Positions 1 to 6,037 of a stretch of DNA of 6,037 nucleotides are shown here, one piece after another. Origin of the DNA: a virus; IMG/VR virus record IMGVR_UViG_3300020030_000036, positions 1 through 6,037 of that record; one strand, 5' to 3'. Numbering within the stretch: the first letter of the stretch is position 1; every line of letters starts with the position of its first letter. The notes below the pieces were generated by a model. That model was not told the DNA's origin. It ran no database searches and worked only from the letters and a program-made list of their open reading frames with translations. The translations under genes and the position numbers were made by a program.

Positions 1-121
1 ACTTCGTCGTGGTCTTACTTTGATTTTGAGAAGCGTATCAGTTATAACTACTCGATTCCTCGATACTACCTTAGATATCTTAAACCGGAAGATGACGTTG
101 TTCGCTCGATTACCGCTGCTG
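1..121. repeat. Terminal redundancy: exact copy of 5917..6037, the circularisation overlap of a 5,916-nt circular genome
   Basis: Base-by-base comparison shows 1-121 (acttcgtcgtggtcttac...attaccgctgctg) identical to 5917-6037. The Rep reading frame runs through it without interruption. Confidence 0.95.
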
Positions 122-2175: not shown

Positions 2176-2472
2176 ATGGCACTTGATTGGCTTCTTGAAG
2201 ATGCTCCCGCCTATGTCTCTCGCGGTCAGCGTATTCTTTCCGTTCTTGATGGCTCTGGCTCCGTTGATGTTTTGCCTGGTCGACCCGATGTGGTGGTAGA
2301 ACCTTCTGATTTTGATAAGGGTGAAAAGTTTAACCCTGAGATTGATTTTGACCCTAATTCGTTCTCTCGTATGGATAAGTTTGATGGTCTCGAAGTTGGC
2401 CAGGAACTTATTGATTCAGAATTAGATAGGTCGAAATCTGCTTCGAAACCTACTACCTCTGAAGAAAAATAG
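2176..2472 (+). CDS. Small acidic hypothetical protein (98 aa); possible scaffolding-type protein
   Basis: Clean ATG ORF 12 nt after the VP1 stop, on the same strand and not overlapping neighbours. It is strongly D/E-rich (EPSDFDKGEKFNPEIDFDPNSF...ELIDSELD). No motif was recognised, so the function is inferred only from position and charge. Confidence 0.6.
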   Translation: MALDWLLEDAPAYVSRGQRILSVLDGSGSVDVLPGRPDVVVEPSDFDKGEKFNPEIDFDPNSFSRMDKFDGLEVGQELIDSELDRSKSASKPTTSEEK

Positions 2473-2494: not shown

Positions 2495-2797
2495 ATGTTA
2501 CGTGCGCGGACCCCTTCGGAAAGAGTCCGTGAATTTCTGAAGGTTATTGGTAACGACTGCCGGAGAGGCCGCGCATTTTTCTATCGTTCTTTAAATTTCA
2601 TTCCTATGCCTGATACTAAACAACCCTTCTATAAATCGAAGTCTTTTTGGACGCTTGTTTCGTCTATTATTGCCGCGTTGGCTGCTTTTTTTCTTGCTTC
2701 GTGTTCTGCTCAAGCTAGAATGCAGCGCAGCGGTGTTCATATCGATACCGTGCGTGTCGATTATATCATTCGTTCTAACAATTTAACTCGCATATAA
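2495..2797 (+). CDS. Small membrane protein / putative lipoprotein. The start is ambiguous: ATG 2495 gives 100 aa, internal ATG 2606 gives a 63-aa lipoprotein precursor.
   Basis: From Met38 (ATG 2606) the sequence is MPDTKQPFYKSKSFWTLVSSIIAALAAFFLASC|SAQ.... This has a Lys-containing n-region, an approximately 18-residue hydrophobic core, then the lipobox L-A-S-C (Cys codon 2702-2704), leaving a 31-aa mature peptide. The stop (2795-2797) is 1 nt before the VP2 ATG. The upstream 37 codons are Arg-rich and contain a small hairpin (2505-2531), so they may or may not be translated. Confidence 0.6.
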   Translation: MLRARTPSERVREFLKVIGNDCRRGRAFFYRSLNFIPMPDTKQPFYKSKSFWTLVSSIIAALAAFFLASCSAQARMQRSGVHIDTVRVDYIIRSNNLTRI

Positions 2798-2798
2798 T

Positions 2799-4061
2799 AT
2801 GGCCATACCTGTTGCTGCTGCCGGTGCTGCTACCTCTTTTGGTCGCGCCCTTGGTGAGTCTGCCGCTTCTACCGGCACTAATGGTTTAATAAACGGCTTT
2901 TTAGGCCAACTTTTTGGTGGCATGAACGCCCGTCGCCAATGGCGATATCAACAAAAGCAGATGAAACTTCAGCAGCAGTACGCTCTTGAGCAAATGCAGA
3001 AGCAATCAGAACTTTCTTACGCTAACTGGCAAAAACAATTTGATTACGAAAACGCATATAATGACCCATCGAAGGTTTTCGACCGCTATTTGAAGGCTGG
3101 TGTAACGCCTGCCGCTGTTTTAGGCTCTTCCGGTGTTGGAGTAAACGCTACTATGTCTGGCGGCTCCGCCTCTATGCCCTCCGCCTCAGGTCCTTCTGGT
3201 GGCGCTCCCGTTAGCCCTAGTGTCTTCGCCCCTGGTGATCCTACTGCTATCGCGCAGAACATGTTGGCTCGTTCTTCGGTCGATCGCAATGACGCTGCCG
3301 CTAATCGTGATAATGCTGAAGCCGAGCTTATGAGAGGCAACACTCATAGTGCAGACTGGCGAAAGGAGATGGATGAGTTGGAGAAGAAGTCTTTAGAACA
3401 TCAGATTAACAACGTTTCCGAATTAATTCGTCTTAATCGTGCTTTAGCCGATATCCATGCTGCTGATGCTGAGTACGCTGATCTTATGTCTACATACAAG
3501 TTTCAAGATTTTGTTGCTATGTACGCGAAACATGTTGAGGAAGCAAATCAGCTTAAGAAGTACAACGATAAATACTTCGATGCTGTTTATGCTGCTCAAA
3601 TCGCTCGGGATTTTGCTGCTGCTTACGAGTCCGCCGCCTCTGGCGATGTCTTGAATGTTGAATCAGAAATACGTAAGGTTAACTTGGCCGACCTTCGCGA
3701 GTGGTTTAATCTCAATTGGGACGCCGTTATTGATGTTCCAGAAGTTAATGAAAAAGGCAAGCCTACCGGCAAGACGGTGAAGATGACAGGCCGTGAGATT
3801 CATGAGAAACTTATGGGACTCGCTGCTTCGGAAGGTGAACAAAATCTCTCAGGTCGCTGGTTTCAAAATCGATCCAGCAAGAATGCTTTTGGTTATAGCA
3901 TGGCGAGAACCGCCCTGGTTGGTGCCATGGCTATCGCCGGCACGGCCGCGACGAAGCGTCCTGTTCCTGTCGGTTATGATGAAAATGTGGAAAGATACGA
4001 TAAATATGGTGAATTTGTTGGAGGTACGAGGGTTACCCGTCGCGATTTGACGAAGAAATGA
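2799..4061 (+). CDS. Minor capsid / DNA pilot protein (Microviridae VP2 / H-like), 420 aa
   Basis: It has a Gly/Ala-rich hydrophobic N-terminus, then a Gln-rich helical segment. The conserved VP2-type motif follows: NWQKQFDYENAYNDPSKVFDRYLKAGVTPAAVLG (compare the N-x-Y-N-S-P...AGLNP pattern of microvirus VP2). Next come a Ser/Gly/Pro low-complexity linker and a long helical C-terminal half. Size and position after VP1 are typical. Confidence 0.85.
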   Translation: MAIPVAAAGAATSFGRALGESAASTGTNGLINGFLGQLFGGMNARRQWRYQQKQMKLQQQYALEQMQKQSELSYANWQKQFDYENAYNDPSKVFDRYLKAGVTPAAVLGSSGVGVNATMSGGSASMPSASGPSGGAPVSPSVFAPGDPTAIAQNMLARSSVDRNDAAANRDNAEAELMRGNTHSADWRKEMDELEKKSLEHQINNVSELIRLNRALADIHAADAEYADLMSTYKFQDFVAMYAKHVEEANQLKKYNDKYFDAVYAAQIARDFAAAYESAASGDVLNVESEIRKVNLADLREWFNLNWDAVIDVPEVNEKGKPTGKTVKMTGREIHEKLMGLAASEGEQNLSGRWFQNRSSKNAFGYSMARTALVGAMAIAGTAATKRPVPVGYDENVERYDKYGEFVGGTRVTRRDLTKK

Positions 4062-4084
4062 ACAGTTCTTCCAACCTTTTGAGC

Positions 4085-4115
4085 TTTGTTGCACGTTCTT
4101 TTTACCGTATATTTG
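4085..4115 (+). promoter_or_regulatory. Candidate Bacteroidota sigma-AB-type promoter (-33 TTTG / -7 TAnnTTTG) driving the accessory ORFs
   Basis: TTTG at 4085-4088, a 19-nt spacer, then TATATTTG at 4108-4115. It lies in the 80-nt VP2-ORF4142 intergenic gap, 26 nt upstream of the ATG at 4142. This matches the published Bacteroides consensus TTTG-N19-21-TAnnTTTG. Confidence 0.5.
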
Positions 4116-4141
4116 TATCGTAAACCAATAACCATACTACC

Positions 4142-4453
4142 ATGAAAGCAAATGAAAAATCTAGATTCGTAGACCTCTCTGTTGATGTTATCGAGTACAT
4201 GTTCACTGAGTGGCTTGTTCGTCAAGGTATCTTTTCTAAATTTAAAGCGAACTATGAGGGTTTTAGTACAAATCATCGATCCTTTCGCGCCAATTTACGT
4301 GATCGGCTTCGCTTTTTGTGTCACACCTCCGGCCCTGGCAGCCTTATTTCTACGGCTTTTCCGTTCGCTCTGACGCGAGAAGGTTATGAATTTTGGGTAG
4401 ACAAATCGAATCGTTGGTGTCAATTTTGTATAGATTTTAAATCGACTTTTTAA
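4142..4453 (+). CDS. Hypothetical protein, 103 aa (accessory ORF 1)
   Basis: ATG ORF following the candidate promoter, with no overlap with neighbours. The C-terminal half is aromatic-rich (AFPFALTREGYEFWVDKSNRWCQFC) and has C60-H61 plus a C93-x-x-C96 pair. No family was confidently recognised. Confidence 0.6.
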   Translation: MKANEKSRFVDLSVDVIEYMFTEWLVRQGIFSKFKANYEGFSTNHRSFRANLRDRLRFLCHTSGPGSLISTAFPFALTREGYEFWVDKSNRWCQFCIDFKSTF

Positions 4454-4464
4454 ATTATATTATT

Positions 4465-4788
4465 ATGTCTCAAGTTCACATTGTTATTCGCCGGATTAAT
4501 CCGGCCTTGAAAATTGATCTCGCCCAGGTAGGTCGCCTCGAAGAAGACCGATTTGAATCGATTCCCTTGGAGGTTCTTGCAAATTCCGCTATTTCGAGTA
4601 TCTTGAAACGTTCTGAAATTAGCGATTCGCTTTATGTTGATCATTCAAGTATACCTAAACTTATTGCTATCTGTGAAGGTTTCCCTGATTTTCGTGTCGA
4701 ATTTTTTGACAATACACTTGTCCTTATGTTTTACCGTGATCTAGATCGTAATGAAAGCGCGACGAAAGAAGAAGGGGAAGGGCACTAA
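4465..4788 (+). CDS. Hypothetical protein, 107 aa (accessory ORF 2)
   Basis: ATG ORF 11 nt after the previous stop, on the same strand and followed by a strong hairpin. It has an acidic C-terminal tail (ESATKEEGEGH). No motif was recognised. Confidence 0.55.
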   Translation: MSQVHIVIRRINPALKIDLAQVGRLEEDRFESIPLEVLANSAISSILKRSEISDSLYVDHSSIPKLIAICEGFPDFRVEFFDNTLVLMFYRDLDRNESATKEEGEGH

Positions 4789-4833
4789 AGTAGTGACCCG
4801 CCCGCTTGGTGGAAGAGTCCTCTGATGCGGTAG

Positions 4834-4867
4834 ACCTGCAGGAGGCTCTTCTCCTGCAGGTTTTCTC
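4834..4867 (+). terminator. Perfect hairpin (11-bp stem, 6-nt loop) followed by a T-run; candidate intrinsic terminator and/or ssDNA structural element
   Basis: ACCTGCAGGAG (4834-4844), loop GCTCTT (4845-4850), CTCCTGCAGGT (4851-4861), then TTTCTC. It lies 46 nt after the stop of ORF 4465..4788. Confidence 0.6.
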
Positions 4868-5005
4868 ATTGACATATACTCTTCGAGCCGTTAAGAGCGC
4901 GGCGAGTAAGTGTTTCCGGAGCCGATAATATCGCGGACGCGAGATTGAGGCCCGAAACAGCACAGCCCGCTTAGGCTCGTGTTGTGTAACGTAATTTTTT
5001 TAGTT

Positions 5006-5206
5006 ATGGATTTTTTCGATTTCAGACCTCGTTTTTCCCCCGTGATTGACGGCATTCCCTACTGTTTTTCTGTTGCGGCATACCGTGGTAAGAAGCGCGT
5101 TGTTATCGCCTGGTTCTCCGACGAAGAGCCGGCGAAGGATTACCTTGTTCGCTGTCGTCGTGATTATCCTGCTGTCAAGTTTGACTGTCTTAGAAGTATT
5201 TTGTAA
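5006..5206 (+). CDS. Hypothetical small protein, 66 aa, translationally coupled to Rep (accessory ORF 3; possible VP5 / protein C-like)
   Basis: The ORF track begins at GTG 4979, but the first ATG is at 5006 (MDFFDFRPRF...). The stop TAA (5204-5206) overlaps the Rep ATG (5206-5208) as TAATG. No motif was recognised. Confidence 0.5.
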   Translation: MDFFDFRPRFSPVIDGIPYCFSVAAYRGKKRVVIAWFSDEEPAKDYLVRCRRDYPAVKFDCLRSIL

Positions 5207-6037
5207 TGCCTTGTTCGTCACCTATATGGATACGCAATCGTCGCTATTTTGACAAGAAGAATCCCTGTCGTAATGGCTCCGATGTCGCCAAGTCCGCCCT
5301 GGCTCTCCGTCCCTGGGATATCGCGCGTCAATGGCTTATGGTCCCATGTGGAAAGTGCGAAGACTGCCTGCGTCGTCAACGTAATGATTGGTTTGTCCGG
5401 CTCGAGCGTGAGCTTGCCCGTTGTAAGGCTGATGGTCAGCAAGCCATTTTTATTACAATAACGATCGCTCCAAAGCACTACGACAAAGCCCTGCTTGACC
5501 CGTCCTGGTTTATTCGAAAATTCAACGAGCGACTACGGCATAAACTCGGCCATTCGTTTAAACACGCTTTTTTTCAGGAGTTTGGCACCCACCCAGAAAC
5601 GGGAAATGAACCCCGATTGCATTTTCATGGCTTTTTATTTGGCACAAACGTTCTCTATAACACGATTCGTTCTGCTGTTCGAGACCTCGGTTTCGTATGG
5701 CTTGCAAAAGCGACACACAAACGTGCTCGCTACTGCGTTAAGTATGTTACTAAACAAATTCAGTTTAATCCCGAAGAAATTTCGGGTAAATTCGTTACCG
5801 TAAATGGAACAATTACACCTTTATCTTGCCTCCTCCAACATCGCCGTTATACGCGAAAATTCGTATCTGCTGGCGTTGGTGATTTTCTTGGCTACATGCC
5901 TCGTCCTTCTGTTCGTACTTCGTCGTGGTCTTACTTTGATTTTGAGAAGCGTATCAGTTATAACTACTCGATTCCTCGATACTACCTTAGATATCTTAAA
6001 CCGGAAGATGACGTTGTTCGCTCGATTACCGCTGCTG
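5206..6037 (+). CDS. Replication initiation protein (Microviridae VP4 / protein A-like, HUH rolling-circle endonuclease), N-terminal portion. It runs off the window end and continues at 1..360.
   Basis: My own translation of frame 1 from ATG 5206 gives MPCSSPIWIRNRRYFDKKNPC...MVPCGKCEDCLRRQRNDWFVRL. This contains the typical microvirus Rep N-terminus and CxxCxxC box. It also contains motif 1 FITITI (5449-5466), HUH motif LHFHGFLF (HFHGFLF at 5620-5640) and the catalytic Tyr motif YCVKYVTK (5731-5754). The ORF track does not list it because it has no stop inside the window end. Stops at 5182 and 5191 in this frame exclude an earlier start. Confidence 0.93.
   Translation, partial: MPCSSPIWIRNRRYFDKKNPCRNGSDVAKSALALRPWDIARQWLMVPCGKCEDCLRRQRNDWFVRLERELARCKADGQQAIFITITIAPKHYDKALLDPSWFIRKFNERLRHKLGHSFKHAFFQEFGTHPETGNEPRLHFHGFLFGTNVLYNTIRSAVRDLGFVWLAKATHKRARYCVKYVTKQIQFNPEEISGKFVTVNGTITPLSCLLQHRRYTRKFVSAGVGDFLGYMPRPSVRTSSWSYFDFEKRISYNYSIPRYYLRYLKPEDDVVRSITAA
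5917..6037. repeat. Terminal redundancy: exact copy of 1..121
   Basis: Identical 121-nt string at both window ends. Confidence 0.95.

What the first reader, a model, noticed from the sequence alone, without database searches (positions are those of the whole stretch)
4062..5206. Self-contained accessory cassette of three unknown small ORFs between VP2 and Rep
About 1.1 kb, nearly a fifth of the genome, is occupied by ORFs of 103, 107 and 66 aa that match none of the core microvirus functions I can recognise. The block begins with its own Bacteroides-type promoter (4085-4115). The first two ORFs are followed by a perfect hairpin plus T-run (4834-4867), which suggests a separate transcription unit from the structural genes. 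In such a size-constrained capsid, retained accessory genes usually have strong selective value, for example host takeover, anti-defence, lysogeny control, exclusion or DNA packaging. ORF 4142..4453 has an aromatic C-terminal motif (AFPFALTREGYEFWVDKSNRW) followed by CxxC. It resembles an F/W-x-x-T-x-E-G-x-x-F/Y-W motif I recall seeing in other phage hypothetical proteins, but that recollection is unverified.
Basis: partly seen in the sequence, partly recalled or inferred. Interest (0 to 1): 0.65.

Follow-up and report, generated by a model that had tools for sequence, protein, structure and literature searches.

The report
Conserved microvirus small-gene unit, hidden packaging gene
The 1.1-kb block is not a loose add-on cassette but a conserved expression unit of a gut microvirus lineage, and it hides an unannotated 24-residue gene for the basic peptide that packs the DNA; only the first ORF looks like a true accessory gene.

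Summary
ORFs of 103, 107 and 66 aa, a Bacteroidota-type promoter match (4085-4115) and a hairpin with a T-run (4832-4870) are all present, and all recur in about 59 complete relatives.

The "accessory cassette" reading is only partly right:
- **Fixed synteny.** The order VP2-ORF1-ORF2-ORF3-Rep is the same in every complete relative. All three ORFs are under purifying selection (dN/dS 0.15-0.30).
- **A missed fourth gene.** Positions 4751-4825 encode MKARRKKKGKGTKVVTRPLGGRVL, overprinted on the 3' end of ORF2. The ATG is present in 59 of 59 relatives. The stop sits at one fixed position but varies between TGA, TAA and TAG. Variation falls at third codon positions. The peptide has the size, charge and GGxx[L/F] C-terminus of phiX174/alpha3 J and gokushovirus VP8, which is a core function.
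- **ORF1** is a five-helix protein missing from four relatives. It belongs to a large unnamed phage domain family (…AF.W..T.EG..FW…), so it is the one plausible accessory gene.
- **ORF2** has an α/β fold and occurs throughout the wider lineage.
- **ORF3** overlaps the Rep start by 1 nt in 56 of 60 genomes.

The functions of ORF1, ORF2 and ORF3 remain inferred. I found no homology to VP3, VP5, B, C or D.

The parts
4085..4115 (+). Bacteroidota-type promoter-like site: -33 TTTG (4085-4088), 19-nt spacer, -7 TATATTTG (4108-4115). It ends 26 nt before the ORF1 ATG.
   Evidence: It is the only full match in the window. The -7 box lies 25-27 nt before ORF1 in 50 of 60 relatives, and 31 of 59 carry the full motif. 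No transcription start was mapped.
4142..4453 (+). ORF1, 103 aa, basic (pI 9.2) and rich in aromatic residues, predicted as a five-helix bundle. It belongs to an unnamed domain family (F..FL…N … aF.W..T.EG..FW……W).
   Evidence: Homologues share 48-97% identity. dN/dS is 0.26. The model has pLDDT 83 and no PDB match. An exhaustive profile search gave 121 hits, including tandem-repeat proteins. Those hits link to PHROGs 10949, 16354, 25460 and 20568, all of unknown function. ORF1 is absent from L003, L079, L089 and L091.
4465..4788 (+). ORF2, 107 aa, acidic (pI 4.9), with a compact α/β fold and a disordered tail (residues 97-107) that lies over the J-like gene.
   Evidence: There are 163 homologue clusters, almost all of 107 aa. 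dN/dS is 0.30. The model has pLDDT 86. PDB gave no significant match. The fold is shared with uncharacterised proteins of other microviruses (BFVD, E 1e-6 to 4e-4, TM 0.65-0.75). Homologues occur in all six distant relatives checked.
4751..4825 (+). Hidden overprinted gene for the 24-aa peptide MKARRKKKGKGTKVVTRPLGGRVL (net charge +10). It is a J/VP8-like DNA-packaging peptide. It overlaps the last 38 nt of ORF2 in the +1 frame and runs 37 nt past the ORF2 stop.
   Evidence: The ATG is present in 59 of 59 relatives. The stop is at one fixed position, as TGA in 26, TAA in 25 and TAG in 8. Entropy by codon position is 0.15/0.12/0.90 and jumps to 1.32 after the stop. Codon differences are 313 synonymous against 81 non-synonymous. 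The peptide aligns with alpha3 J, phiX174 J, Chp2 ORF8 and phiMH2K J-like, with M1, R4 and the GG pair invariant. A simple filter finds only this ORF and the known J/VP8 genes. It is also present in L089 and L092.
4832..4870 (+). Terminator-like hairpin (core stem 4835-4844/4851-4860, loop GCTCTT) followed by TTTTCTCATT. It begins 7 nt after the J-like stop.
   Evidence: Fold results are. The hairpin is conserved in position across relatives, and 8 of 10 aligned pairs have compensatory changes. The simple scan did not list it. Termination was not measured.
4871..5005 (+). Structured non-coding stretch with two further hairpins. Relatives carry different interchangeable modules here.
   Evidence: The RNA fold z-score is -4.15 for 4789-5005. 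The ssDNA fold z-score is -4.66 for 4826-5005. Module classes are shown. Rfam gave no match.
5006..5206 (+). ORF3, 66 aa, mildly basic (pI 8.9). Its stop overlaps the Rep start (TAATG, 5204-5208).
   Evidence: There are 143 homologue clusters, nearly all of 66 aa and 61-95% identical. dN/dS is 0.15. The 1-nt overlap with Rep holds in 56 of 60 genomes. ORF3 is present in 26 GenBank microvirus records and unannotated in most of them. No family or PDB match was found.
5206..6037 (+). Start of Rep (VP4). It continues through the terminal repeat to window position 360, giving 356 aa. It is listed because ORF3 is coupled to it.
   Evidence: Pfam REP_ORF2-G2P and PHROG 942 match it. The terminal repeat is shown and the 356-aa length.

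Best explanation
The block is the conserved small-gene expression unit of a lineage of gut and wastewater microviruses that probably infect Bacteroidota.

**Proposed mechanism**
1. A host-type promoter at 4085-4115 starts a transcript that carries ORF1, ORF2 and a hidden 24-codon gene (4751-4825) overprinted on the end of ORF2.
2. That gene makes a very basic peptide. Like phiX174 J and gokushovirus VP8, the peptide binds the single-stranded genome with its Lys/Arg-rich N-terminal half. It anchors its C-terminal PLGGRVL in the inner face of the capsid protein during packaging.
3. A hairpin and T-run 7 nt after its stop ends or attenuates most transcripts.
4. Read-through transcripts supply ORF3 and Rep at a lower level. 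ORF3 and Rep overlap by one base and are probably translated together.

**What each ORF probably does**
- ORF2 is universal in the wider lineage and physically interlocked with the J-like gene. It most likely acts in assembly or packaging.
- ORF3 most likely acts with Rep.
- ORF1 is the only real accessory gene. It is dispensable and belongs to a promiscuous phage domain family that also sits among the small early genes of tailed phages.

**Shown:** that all four genes are real and conserved, the J-like features, the conserved promoter motif, the conserved hairpin, and the ORF3/Rep overlap.
**Inferred:** transcription starts and stops, and every biochemical role.
For: **Conservation**
- Synteny holds in about 59 complete genomes.
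- ORF lengths are fixed.
- Selection is purifying: dN/dS is 0.26, 0.30 and 0.15 for ORF1-3, against 0.07-0.10 for VP1, VP2 and Rep.

**J-like gene**
- The coding signature is clear: ATG in 59 of 59, interchanging stop codons at one position, third-position variation, and 313 synonymous against 81 non-synonymous codon differences.
- It has the same length as alpha3 J (24 aa). It shares M, R and the C-terminal GGxx[L/F] with J of phiX174 and alpha3 and VP8 of Chp2 and phiMH2K.
- It is the only ORF in these genomes that passes a filter which also recovers exactly the known J/VP8 genes.
- Published structures show the last four residues of J/VP8 buried in the same hydrophobic capsid pocket in all solved microviruses (PMC11281519).
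- Its place between VP2 and VP4 matches gokushoviruses.

**Expression signals**
- The promoter motif is conserved 26 nt before ORF1.
- No Shine-Dalgarno sequence precedes any gene (0 of 61), as expected for Bacteroidota.
- The hairpin shows compensatory changes.
- ORF3 and Rep overlap in 56 of 60 genomes.

**ORF1 and ORF2**
- ORF1 is lost in four genomes and has a wide family.
- The ORF2 fold occurs in other microviruses, and ORF2 homologues occur in all distant relatives checked.
- The conserved but disordered ORF2 tail is explained by the overlap.
Against: - No transcript, protein or virion data exist. The public runs that hold related sequence are kept only as contigs and share at most 24% of the sampled words.
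- The promoter match alone is not significant: 15% of shuffles give a match.
- The window's T-run is short (TTTTC), and the simple terminator scan missed the site.
- The J-like peptide does not hit Pfam Microvir_J. Neither do the accepted gokushovirus VP8 proteins.
- ORF1, ORF2 and ORF3 have no detectable similarity to VP3, VP5, B, C, D or K or to any PDB entry. Their assigned roles therefore rest on position and coupling only.
- ORF1 and ORF2 evolve about three times faster than the known core genes. That also fits host-interaction genes.
- The host is not established. No prophage was found in GTDB representative genomes.
Confidence: 0.55

Rival explanations
1. One reading: the whole block is a self-contained accessory cassette (host takeover, anti-defence, exclusion) that is retained because it gives a selective advantage but is not needed to make particles.
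For: ORF1-3 match no known microvirus function. ORF1 and ORF2 have higher dN/dS than the core genes. GC content is lower (0.39-0.40) across ORF1-ORF2. ORF1 belongs to a family also found among small early genes of tailed phages. The block has its own promoter and hairpin.
Against: ORF2 and ORF3 are present, with fixed lengths, in every complete relative, including distant ones. The block holds the J/VP8-like packaging gene. ORF3 is coupled to Rep. No PADLOC hit was found. The promoter here is the only consensus promoter in the genome, so it is unlikely to serve optional genes only.
Confidence: 0.15
2. ORF1 and/or ORF2 are highly diverged positional counterparts of the gokushovirus internal scaffolding protein VP3 and of VP5. 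The block would then be the ancestral VP2-VP3-VP5-VP8-VP4 arrangement with sequences changed beyond recognition.
For: In phiMH2K the order is VP2, VP3, VP5, J-like, VP4. In Chp2 it is VP2, VP3, ORF8, VP4. Here the J-like gene sits in the same place, after two genes of about 100 aa. The placement between promoter and terminator suggests high expression, as for phiX174 D and J (textbook knowledge, not tested here).
Against: hhalign and HMMER find nothing. ORF2 is a compact α/β domain and ORF1 a helical bundle. Neither resembles the largely extended B/VP3 scaffolds, which I know from memory only. ORF1 is dispensable. Krupovic and Forterre assigned the scaffold role in Bacteroidetes proviruses to the ORF after VP1 (PMC3091885). 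Here that is the acidic 98-aa ORF at 2176-2472.
Confidence: 0.2
3. The hairpin and the structured stretch 4826-5005 work mainly on the single-stranded DNA, as the site where the host primes complementary-strand synthesis, rather than as a transcription terminator. Both roles could coexist.
For: This is the largest non-coding stretch of the genome. It folds far better than shuffles as ssDNA (z -4.66). Relatives carry different but always structured modules here. phiX174 and G4 place their priming hairpins in intergenic regions (textbook knowledge).
Against: The first hairpin is always followed by a T-rich tract and always sits just after a stop codon, which is the terminator pattern. No known priming-site motif was recognised, and Rfam gave nothing.
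Confidence: 0.3
4. The conserved 4751-4825 stretch is not translated. Its conservation reflects a nucleic-acid signal such as a Rep recognition site.
For: The sequence just after the ORF2 stop is the most conserved non-annotated DNA in the block. No peptide evidence exists.
Against: Variation has a strict period of three. The stop codon alternates between TGA, TAA and TAG at one position. The ATG is invariant. Amino-acid changes are limited to K/R, V/I and A/S. In distant relatives the DNA has diverged but the peptide pattern persists.
Confidence: 0.03

Closest known systems
phiX174/alpha3 protein J (Pfam PF04726 Microvir_J) and gokushovirus VP8 (Chp2 ORF8, phiMH2K putative DNA-binding protein, SpV4 VP8)
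   Same: The 4751-4825 product is 24 aa, the same length as alpha3 J. It has a Lys/Arg-rich N-terminal half and a C-terminus of GG-x-x-hydrophobic. Its gene lies between VP2 and VP4, as in gokushoviruses.
   Different: It does not hit the Pfam J model. It ends in Leu rather than Phe, as phiMH2K also does. Its gene is overprinted on the 3' end of the upstream gene instead of standing alone. It is not annotated in any relative I examined.
phiX174 D-(E)-J transcription unit with promoter PD and terminator TJ (textbook knowledge, not tested here)
   Same: The layout is promoter, then morphogenesis-type small genes, then the J-type gene, then a hairpin terminator right after it. Read-through reaches the downstream genes.
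   Different: The upstream genes (ORF1, ORF2) are unrelated to D. The genes downstream are ORF3 and Rep, not the capsid gene. The promoter is of the Bacteroidota type.
Overprinted genes of phiX174 (E inside D, B and K inside A)
   Same: A short gene is read in a second frame of another gene in a size-limited genome. The overlapped part of the host gene (the ORF2 tail) is disordered and follows the constraints of the inner gene.
   Different: Only half of the small gene overlaps. The other half extends past the stop of ORF2.
PHROG families 10949, 16354, 25460, 20568, 30073 and 38635 (all of unknown function)
   Same: ORF1 and its distant relatives hit these families through the aF.W..T.EG..FW motif region.
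   Different: ORF1 hits phrog_10949 only weakly (E 0.0017). None of these families has a Pfam model or a known role.
Bacteroidetes microvirus proviruses (Alpavirinae; Krupovic and Forterre 2011, PMC3091885)
   Same: The set of recognisable genes is the same (VP1, VP2, VP4). A conserved small ORF follows VP1, and the probable host is Bacteroidota.
   Different: That study reported no J/VP8 homologue in those proviruses. This lineage has one. No integrated copy of this lineage was found. I did not test whether the window belongs to Alpavirinae.

Membership tests
Microvirus J / VP8 DNA-packaging peptide | Very small ORF (about 20-45 aa) | tested here: met
   It is 24 aa, the same as alpha3 J.
Microvirus J / VP8 DNA-packaging peptide | Lys/Arg-rich with no acidic residues | tested here: met
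   It has 10 K+R and 0 D+E, with pI 12.
Microvirus J / VP8 DNA-packaging peptide | C-terminal anchor GG-x-x-hydrophobic, buried in the capsid protein | tested here: met
   The sequence motif PLGGRVL aligns with YVGGSQF, YVGGQQF, MRGGIRF and MRGGIRL. Burial in the capsid is known for solved viruses (PMC11281519) but could not be tested here.
Microvirus J / VP8 DNA-packaging peptide | Match to Pfam PF04726 (Microvir_J) | tested here: not met
   There was no hit at E up to 10. Alpha3 J hits at 1.6e-14. Chp2 ORF8 and the phiMH2K J-like protein also fail, so the model covers only Bullavirinae.
Microvirus J / VP8 DNA-packaging peptide | Present in virions, bound to ssDNA | not testable with these tools
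   This needs virion proteomics or cryo-EM.
Gokushovirus VP3 internal scaffold (Pfam PF09675) / phiX174 B | Sequence or profile similarity | tested here: not met
   ORF1, ORF2, ORF3 and the 98-aa ORF gave no Pfam hit. hhalign probability was 1.1% or less.
Gokushovirus VP5 / phiX174 C | Sequence or profile similarity | tested here: not met
   hhalign probability was below 1% for ORF1, ORF2 and ORF3.
Bacteroidota sigma-AB type promoter | -33 TTTG and -7 TAnnTTTG, 19-21 nt apart | tested here: met
   The site at 4085-4115 has a 19-nt spacer. The motif is conserved in position in relatives.
Bacteroidota sigma-AB type promoter | Transcription start a few bases downstream | not testable with these tools
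   No usable RNA runs were found.
Intrinsic terminator | GC-rich hairpin followed by a U-run | tested here: inconclusive
   The hairpin is strong and covaries. The run is only TTTT in the window, though it reaches 8 T in relatives. The simple scan missed the site.
Accessory (variable, horizontally shared) phage gene | Presence or absence varies among close relatives, and homologues exist outside the lineage | tested here: met
   This holds for ORF1 only. It is absent from L003, L079, L089 and L091. Its family reaches other phages and tandem-repeat proteins.
Accessory (variable, horizontally shared) phage gene | The same feature, applied to ORF2 and ORF3 | tested here: not met
   Both are present in all complete relatives and in the distant relatives. 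No homologues were seen outside microviruses.

The most novel reading that the evidence does not exclude
ORF1 marks a large, unnamed family of small phage proteins. These are single domains of about 80-105 aa or arrays of 2-5 copies, with the signature aF.W..T.EG..FW……W. The family is shared between ssDNA microviruses and tailed phages, where it sits among early small genes. It could be a portable module that binds a host target for takeover or counter-defence. Separately, ORF2 could be a new kind of microvirus assembly or packaging protein whose gene gave rise to the J-type gene by overprinting.
Probability: 0.3. Interest if true: 0.6.

Novelty: new variant of a known kind. Interest (0 to 1): 0.45.

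Why it matters
Gut microviruses outside the phiX174 and gokushovirus groups are annotated with three genes (VP1, VP2, VP4) and a handful of "hypothetical proteins". An earlier study reported no J/VP8 equivalent in the Bacteroidetes proviruses.

- **Annotation gap.** This lineage has a J/VP8-type peptide gene hidden in a second reading frame. That fills a gap in how these phages are thought to pack their DNA. Gene callers and GenBank records miss both this gene and, in most records, ORF3. A simple filter (small, basic, ends in GGxx-hydrophobic) can find the peptide gene elsewhere.
- **Expression map.** The conserved promoter, terminator and ORF3/Rep overlap give a testable expression map for an uncultured phage group.
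- **A new domain to define.** The ORF1 domain family is a concrete candidate for a new Pfam-type family. ORF1 is also the sensible first choice for accessory-function tests such as toxicity, partner pull-down and defence assays.

Tried and rejected
- **Family libraries.** Pfam, PHROGs, NCBIfam and PADLOC scans of ORF1-3 gave nothing annotated. The weak HTH_25 hit of ORF2 (E 0.002, 6 of 50 members) falls on predicted beta strands and was rejected.
- **PDB by sequence profile.** This gave nothing. The 8fje "E8" hit of ORF2 is a designed repeat protein whose score is summed over its repeats, so I rejected it.
- **PDB by fold.** ORF2's best match was GFRP (E 0.04, TM 0.36-0.46), which is not convincing. 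ORF1 had no match.
- **hhalign against known microvirus proteins.** Comparisons with Chp2/phiMH2K VP3 and VP5 and phiX174/alpha3 B, C, D and K were all negative.
- **P0322**, a hit in the ORF1 profile search, is an FN3 repeat protein and a false positive.
- **Prophage and host search.** Searches of GTDB representative genomes with ORF3 and Rep profiles found nothing. A 10.2-kb contig turned out to be a concatemer.
- **Possible ORF3-Rep fusion in MG945170.** This is only a 16-nt overlap, not a fusion.
- **RNA evidence.** Available runs are contigs of related strains only. I did not lay reads.
- **Rfam and tRNA scans** of the region found nothing.
- **AP2-like idea for ORF3.** ORF3 (YRGKKRVVIAWFSDEEPAKDY) reminded me of AP2-type DNA-binding domains.
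Full report
**What the window is.** The window is a complete microvirus genome. Its first and last 121 nt are identical, so the circle is 5916 nt. All genes are on the + strand:
- VP1, 364-2163
- an acidic 98-aa ORF, 2176-2472
- a membrane or lipoprotein-like ORF, 2495-2797
- VP2, 2799-4061
- the block in question
- Rep, which starts at 5206 and ends at window position 360, giving 356 aa

GenBank relatives are unclassified Microviridae of 5.5-6.1 kb from animal and human faeces. IMG/VR gave 80 further loci, 57 of them circular by terminal overlap.

**Checking the observation.** Each has many homologues:
- ORF1 has 25 clusters at 48-97% identity.
- ORF2 has 163 clusters, almost all of exactly 107 aa.
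- ORF3 has 143 clusters, almost all of 66 aa.

Pairwise dN/dS is 0.26 for ORF1, 0.30 for ORF2 and 0.15 for ORF3. For VP1, VP2, Rep and the 98-aa ORF it is 0.07-0.10. The three ORFs are therefore real genes under purifying selection, although ORF1 and ORF2 are looser than the known core genes.

The promoter match TTTG-N19-TATATTTG (4085-4115) is the only one in the window, but that alone is not significant. Conservation is what makes it credible. The -7 box ends 25-27 nt before the ORF1 ATG in 50 of 60 genomes, while the rest of the spacer diverges. Where a relative carries the full motif in this intergenic region, it is almost always the only full match in that genome. No gene in 61 genomes has a Shine-Dalgarno sequence, which fits a Bacteroidota host.

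The hairpin has a core stem at 4835-4844/4851-4860, followed by TTTTCTCATT. The simple scan did not list it. Relatives have an equivalent GC-rich hairpin at the same place with different stem sequences. In a 28-sequence alignment, 8 of 10 aligned pairs show compensatory double changes, and most relatives have T-rich tails.

The CxxC of ORF1 is not conserved.

**The missed gene.** The roughly 37 nt after the ORF2 stop are far more conserved than the DNA that follows, and the variable positions fall every third base. Reading the +1 frame gives a 24-codon ORF at 4751-4825, MKARRKKKGKGTKVVTRPLGGRVL. Across 59 relatives:
- The ATG is always present at the same offset.
- The stop is always at the same position, as TGA (26), TAA (25) or TAG (8).
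- Mean entropy by codon position is 0.15/0.12/0.90 in both the overlapping and the free half, and it jumps to 1.32 right after the stop.
- Codon differences from the consensus are 313 synonymous against 81 non-synonymous.
- The 22 peptide variants differ only by K/R, V/I and A/S changes, plus single T/I, G/S and L/V swaps.

The same peptide pattern is found at the end of the ORF2 homologue in six more distant genomes. No GenBank record that I examined annotates it.

The peptide aligns with alpha3 J (also 24 aa), phiX174 J, Chp2 ORF8 and the phiMH2K J-like protein. M1, an early Arg and the GG pair four residues from a hydrophobic C-terminus are invariant. A crude filter (15-60 aa, strongly basic, ending in GG then 1-3 residues then a hydrophobic residue) picks exactly the known J/VP8 genes in the four reference phages. 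In six of this lineage's genomes it picks only this ORF; L089 and L092, whose peptides end in LG rather than GG, were found by eye.

Published structures show that the last four residues of J/VP8 sit in the same hydrophobic capsid pocket in all solved microviruses (PMC11281519). Pfam's J model does not hit the peptide, but it also misses the gokushovirus proteins.

I conclude that this is the lineage's J/VP8-type packaging peptide. It also explains why residues 97-107 of ORF2 are conserved yet predicted disordered. In the overlap, the inner frame sets the constraints.

**ORF1.** AlphaFold with the family alignment gives a five-helix bundle (pLDDT 83) with no PDB match. An exhaustive profile search of 1.84 billion representatives gave 121 hits. 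Beyond the ~105-aa microvirus family (about 30 hits, most of 99-111 aa) there are many proteins of 65-125 aa. There are also proteins of about 130-570 aa with 2-5 copies of the same unit: F..FL…N, a variable link, then aF.W..T.EG..FW……W. P0322 is an FN3 false positive.

These proteins have no Pfam family. They hit six PHROGs of unknown function, and ORF1 itself touches one of them. Members occur among small early-region genes of Pseudomonas phage phiNV3 and of a crAss-like Bacteroides phage, though the scores there are modest.

ORF1 is missing from two close genomes (L003 = MG945141, and L079). It is also missing from two distant ones that keep ORF2, the J-like gene and ORF3 (L089, L091). It is the only gene in the block that behaves as accessory.

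**ORF2.** The model is a compact α/β domain (pLDDT 86). The best PDB matches are not significant. In the viral structure library, after one same-family member (52% identity), the next five hits (E below 0.01) are proteins of 98-174 aa at 16-20% identity. Two are named as uncharacterised microvirus proteins, including marmot Microvirus mar42, and the other three carry no name. A profile finds ORF2 homologues of 98-108 aa in all six distant relatives. ORF2 is thus a lineage-wide protein that is physically interlocked with the packaging peptide gene.

**ORF3.** This is the best conserved of the three at the amino-acid level (67-86% identical to the window in the close relatives). It occurs in 26 GenBank records, mostly unannotated. 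Its stop overlaps the Rep start (TAATG or TGATG) in 56 of 60 genomes. No family, PDB or profile match was found.

**How the unit probably works.** Gene spacing is tight everywhere except at three places. One is the ~80-nt VP2-ORF1 gap that holds the promoter. The second is the 100-210 nt after the J-like stop, which begin with the hairpin. The third is the variable gap after the 98-aa ORF.

My reading is promoter, then ORF1, ORF2 and J-like, then an attenuating terminator, then read-through into the coupled ORF3-Rep pair. This resembles the phiX174 PD-D-J-TJ unit (textbook knowledge) and the gokushovirus order VP2-VP3-(VP5)-VP8-VP4. Position therefore suggests assembly or packaging roles for ORF2 and a Rep-linked role for ORF3. 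No similarity to VP3, VP5, B, C, D or K supports this, so these roles are inferences.

The stretch 4826-5005 folds much better than shuffles both as RNA and as ssDNA, and it comes in interchangeable modules among relatives. It may also hold the complementary-strand origin.

**Verdict.** The J-like gene is a new, overprinted member of a known kind. ORF1, ORF2 and ORF3 remain families of unknown function, now with defined folds (ORF1, ORF2), distributions and couplings. No transcript or protein data could be obtained, and the host is inferred only from expression signals.

Noticed in passing
window 1-121 and 5917-6037: There is an exact 121-nt terminal repeat, an assembly sign of a circle. The true genome is 5916 nt. 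Rep must be read across the repeat (5206-6037, then 122-360, giving 356 aa); a naive wrap gives a false 284-aa Rep.
   Followed up: yes
window 2495-2797 (probable true start 2606): The 100-aa ORF probably starts at an internal Met. That gives a 63-aa peptide with a signal-like helix and lipobox (…AAFFLAS-C-SAQ). About half of the relatives have only the 61-65-aa form, and a 1-nt gap to VP2 occurs in 60 of 61 genomes. It is a candidate lysis or superinfection-exclusion lipoprotein.
   Followed up: partly
window 4871-5005; IGR after the ORF2 homologue in L001-L086: The non-coding stretch after the terminator is strongly structured. It occurs in at least three different module types among otherwise close relatives (about 100, 135, 215 and 245 nt intergenic classes). 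It is a candidate complementary-strand origin that is exchanged by recombination.
   Followed up: partly
L007-L086 against the window (VP1, VP2): Identity to the window is bimodal. VP2 is either 43-56% or 70-94% identical, and VP1 is about 70% or about 89%, in different combinations. The lineage is therefore mosaic, with capsid, pilot and small-gene modules reassorting.
   Followed up: no
window 5006-5206 and 4751-4825; GenBank MG945784, MG945455, OM869610, PQ006896, PP511490 and others: ORF3 is unannotated in most GenBank relatives. The J-like peptide is unannotated in every GenBank relative whose annotation I examined. Gene callers in the metagenome collections also skip both.
   Followed up: yes
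relatives, 22 nt before the Rep ATG (inside ORF3 codons I-K-F-D); not in the window: A second conserved TAnnTTTG box lies 22 nt upstream of Rep in 39 of 60 genomes, with geometry like the box before ORF1. It may be a coding by-product or an internal Rep promoter. The window has GTCAAGTTTG instead.
   Followed up: no
window 2176-2472: The acidic 98-aa ORF after VP1 (pI 4.2) is 76-96% identical across relatives, which makes it the most conserved small protein after the J-like peptide. It sits where Krupovic and Forterre placed a predicted VP3-like scaffold in Bacteroidetes proviruses. hhalign against Chp2/phiMH2K VP3 found nothing.
   Followed up: partly
window 4051-4650: GC content falls to 0.39-0.40 over ORF1 and the first half of ORF2, against about 0.46 for the genome.
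   Followed up: no
L094 (ENA scaffold, 10,168 nt): A contig that looked like a possible prophage is a 1.7-copy head-to-tail concatemer of a relative's genome, not an integrated copy.
   Followed up: yes
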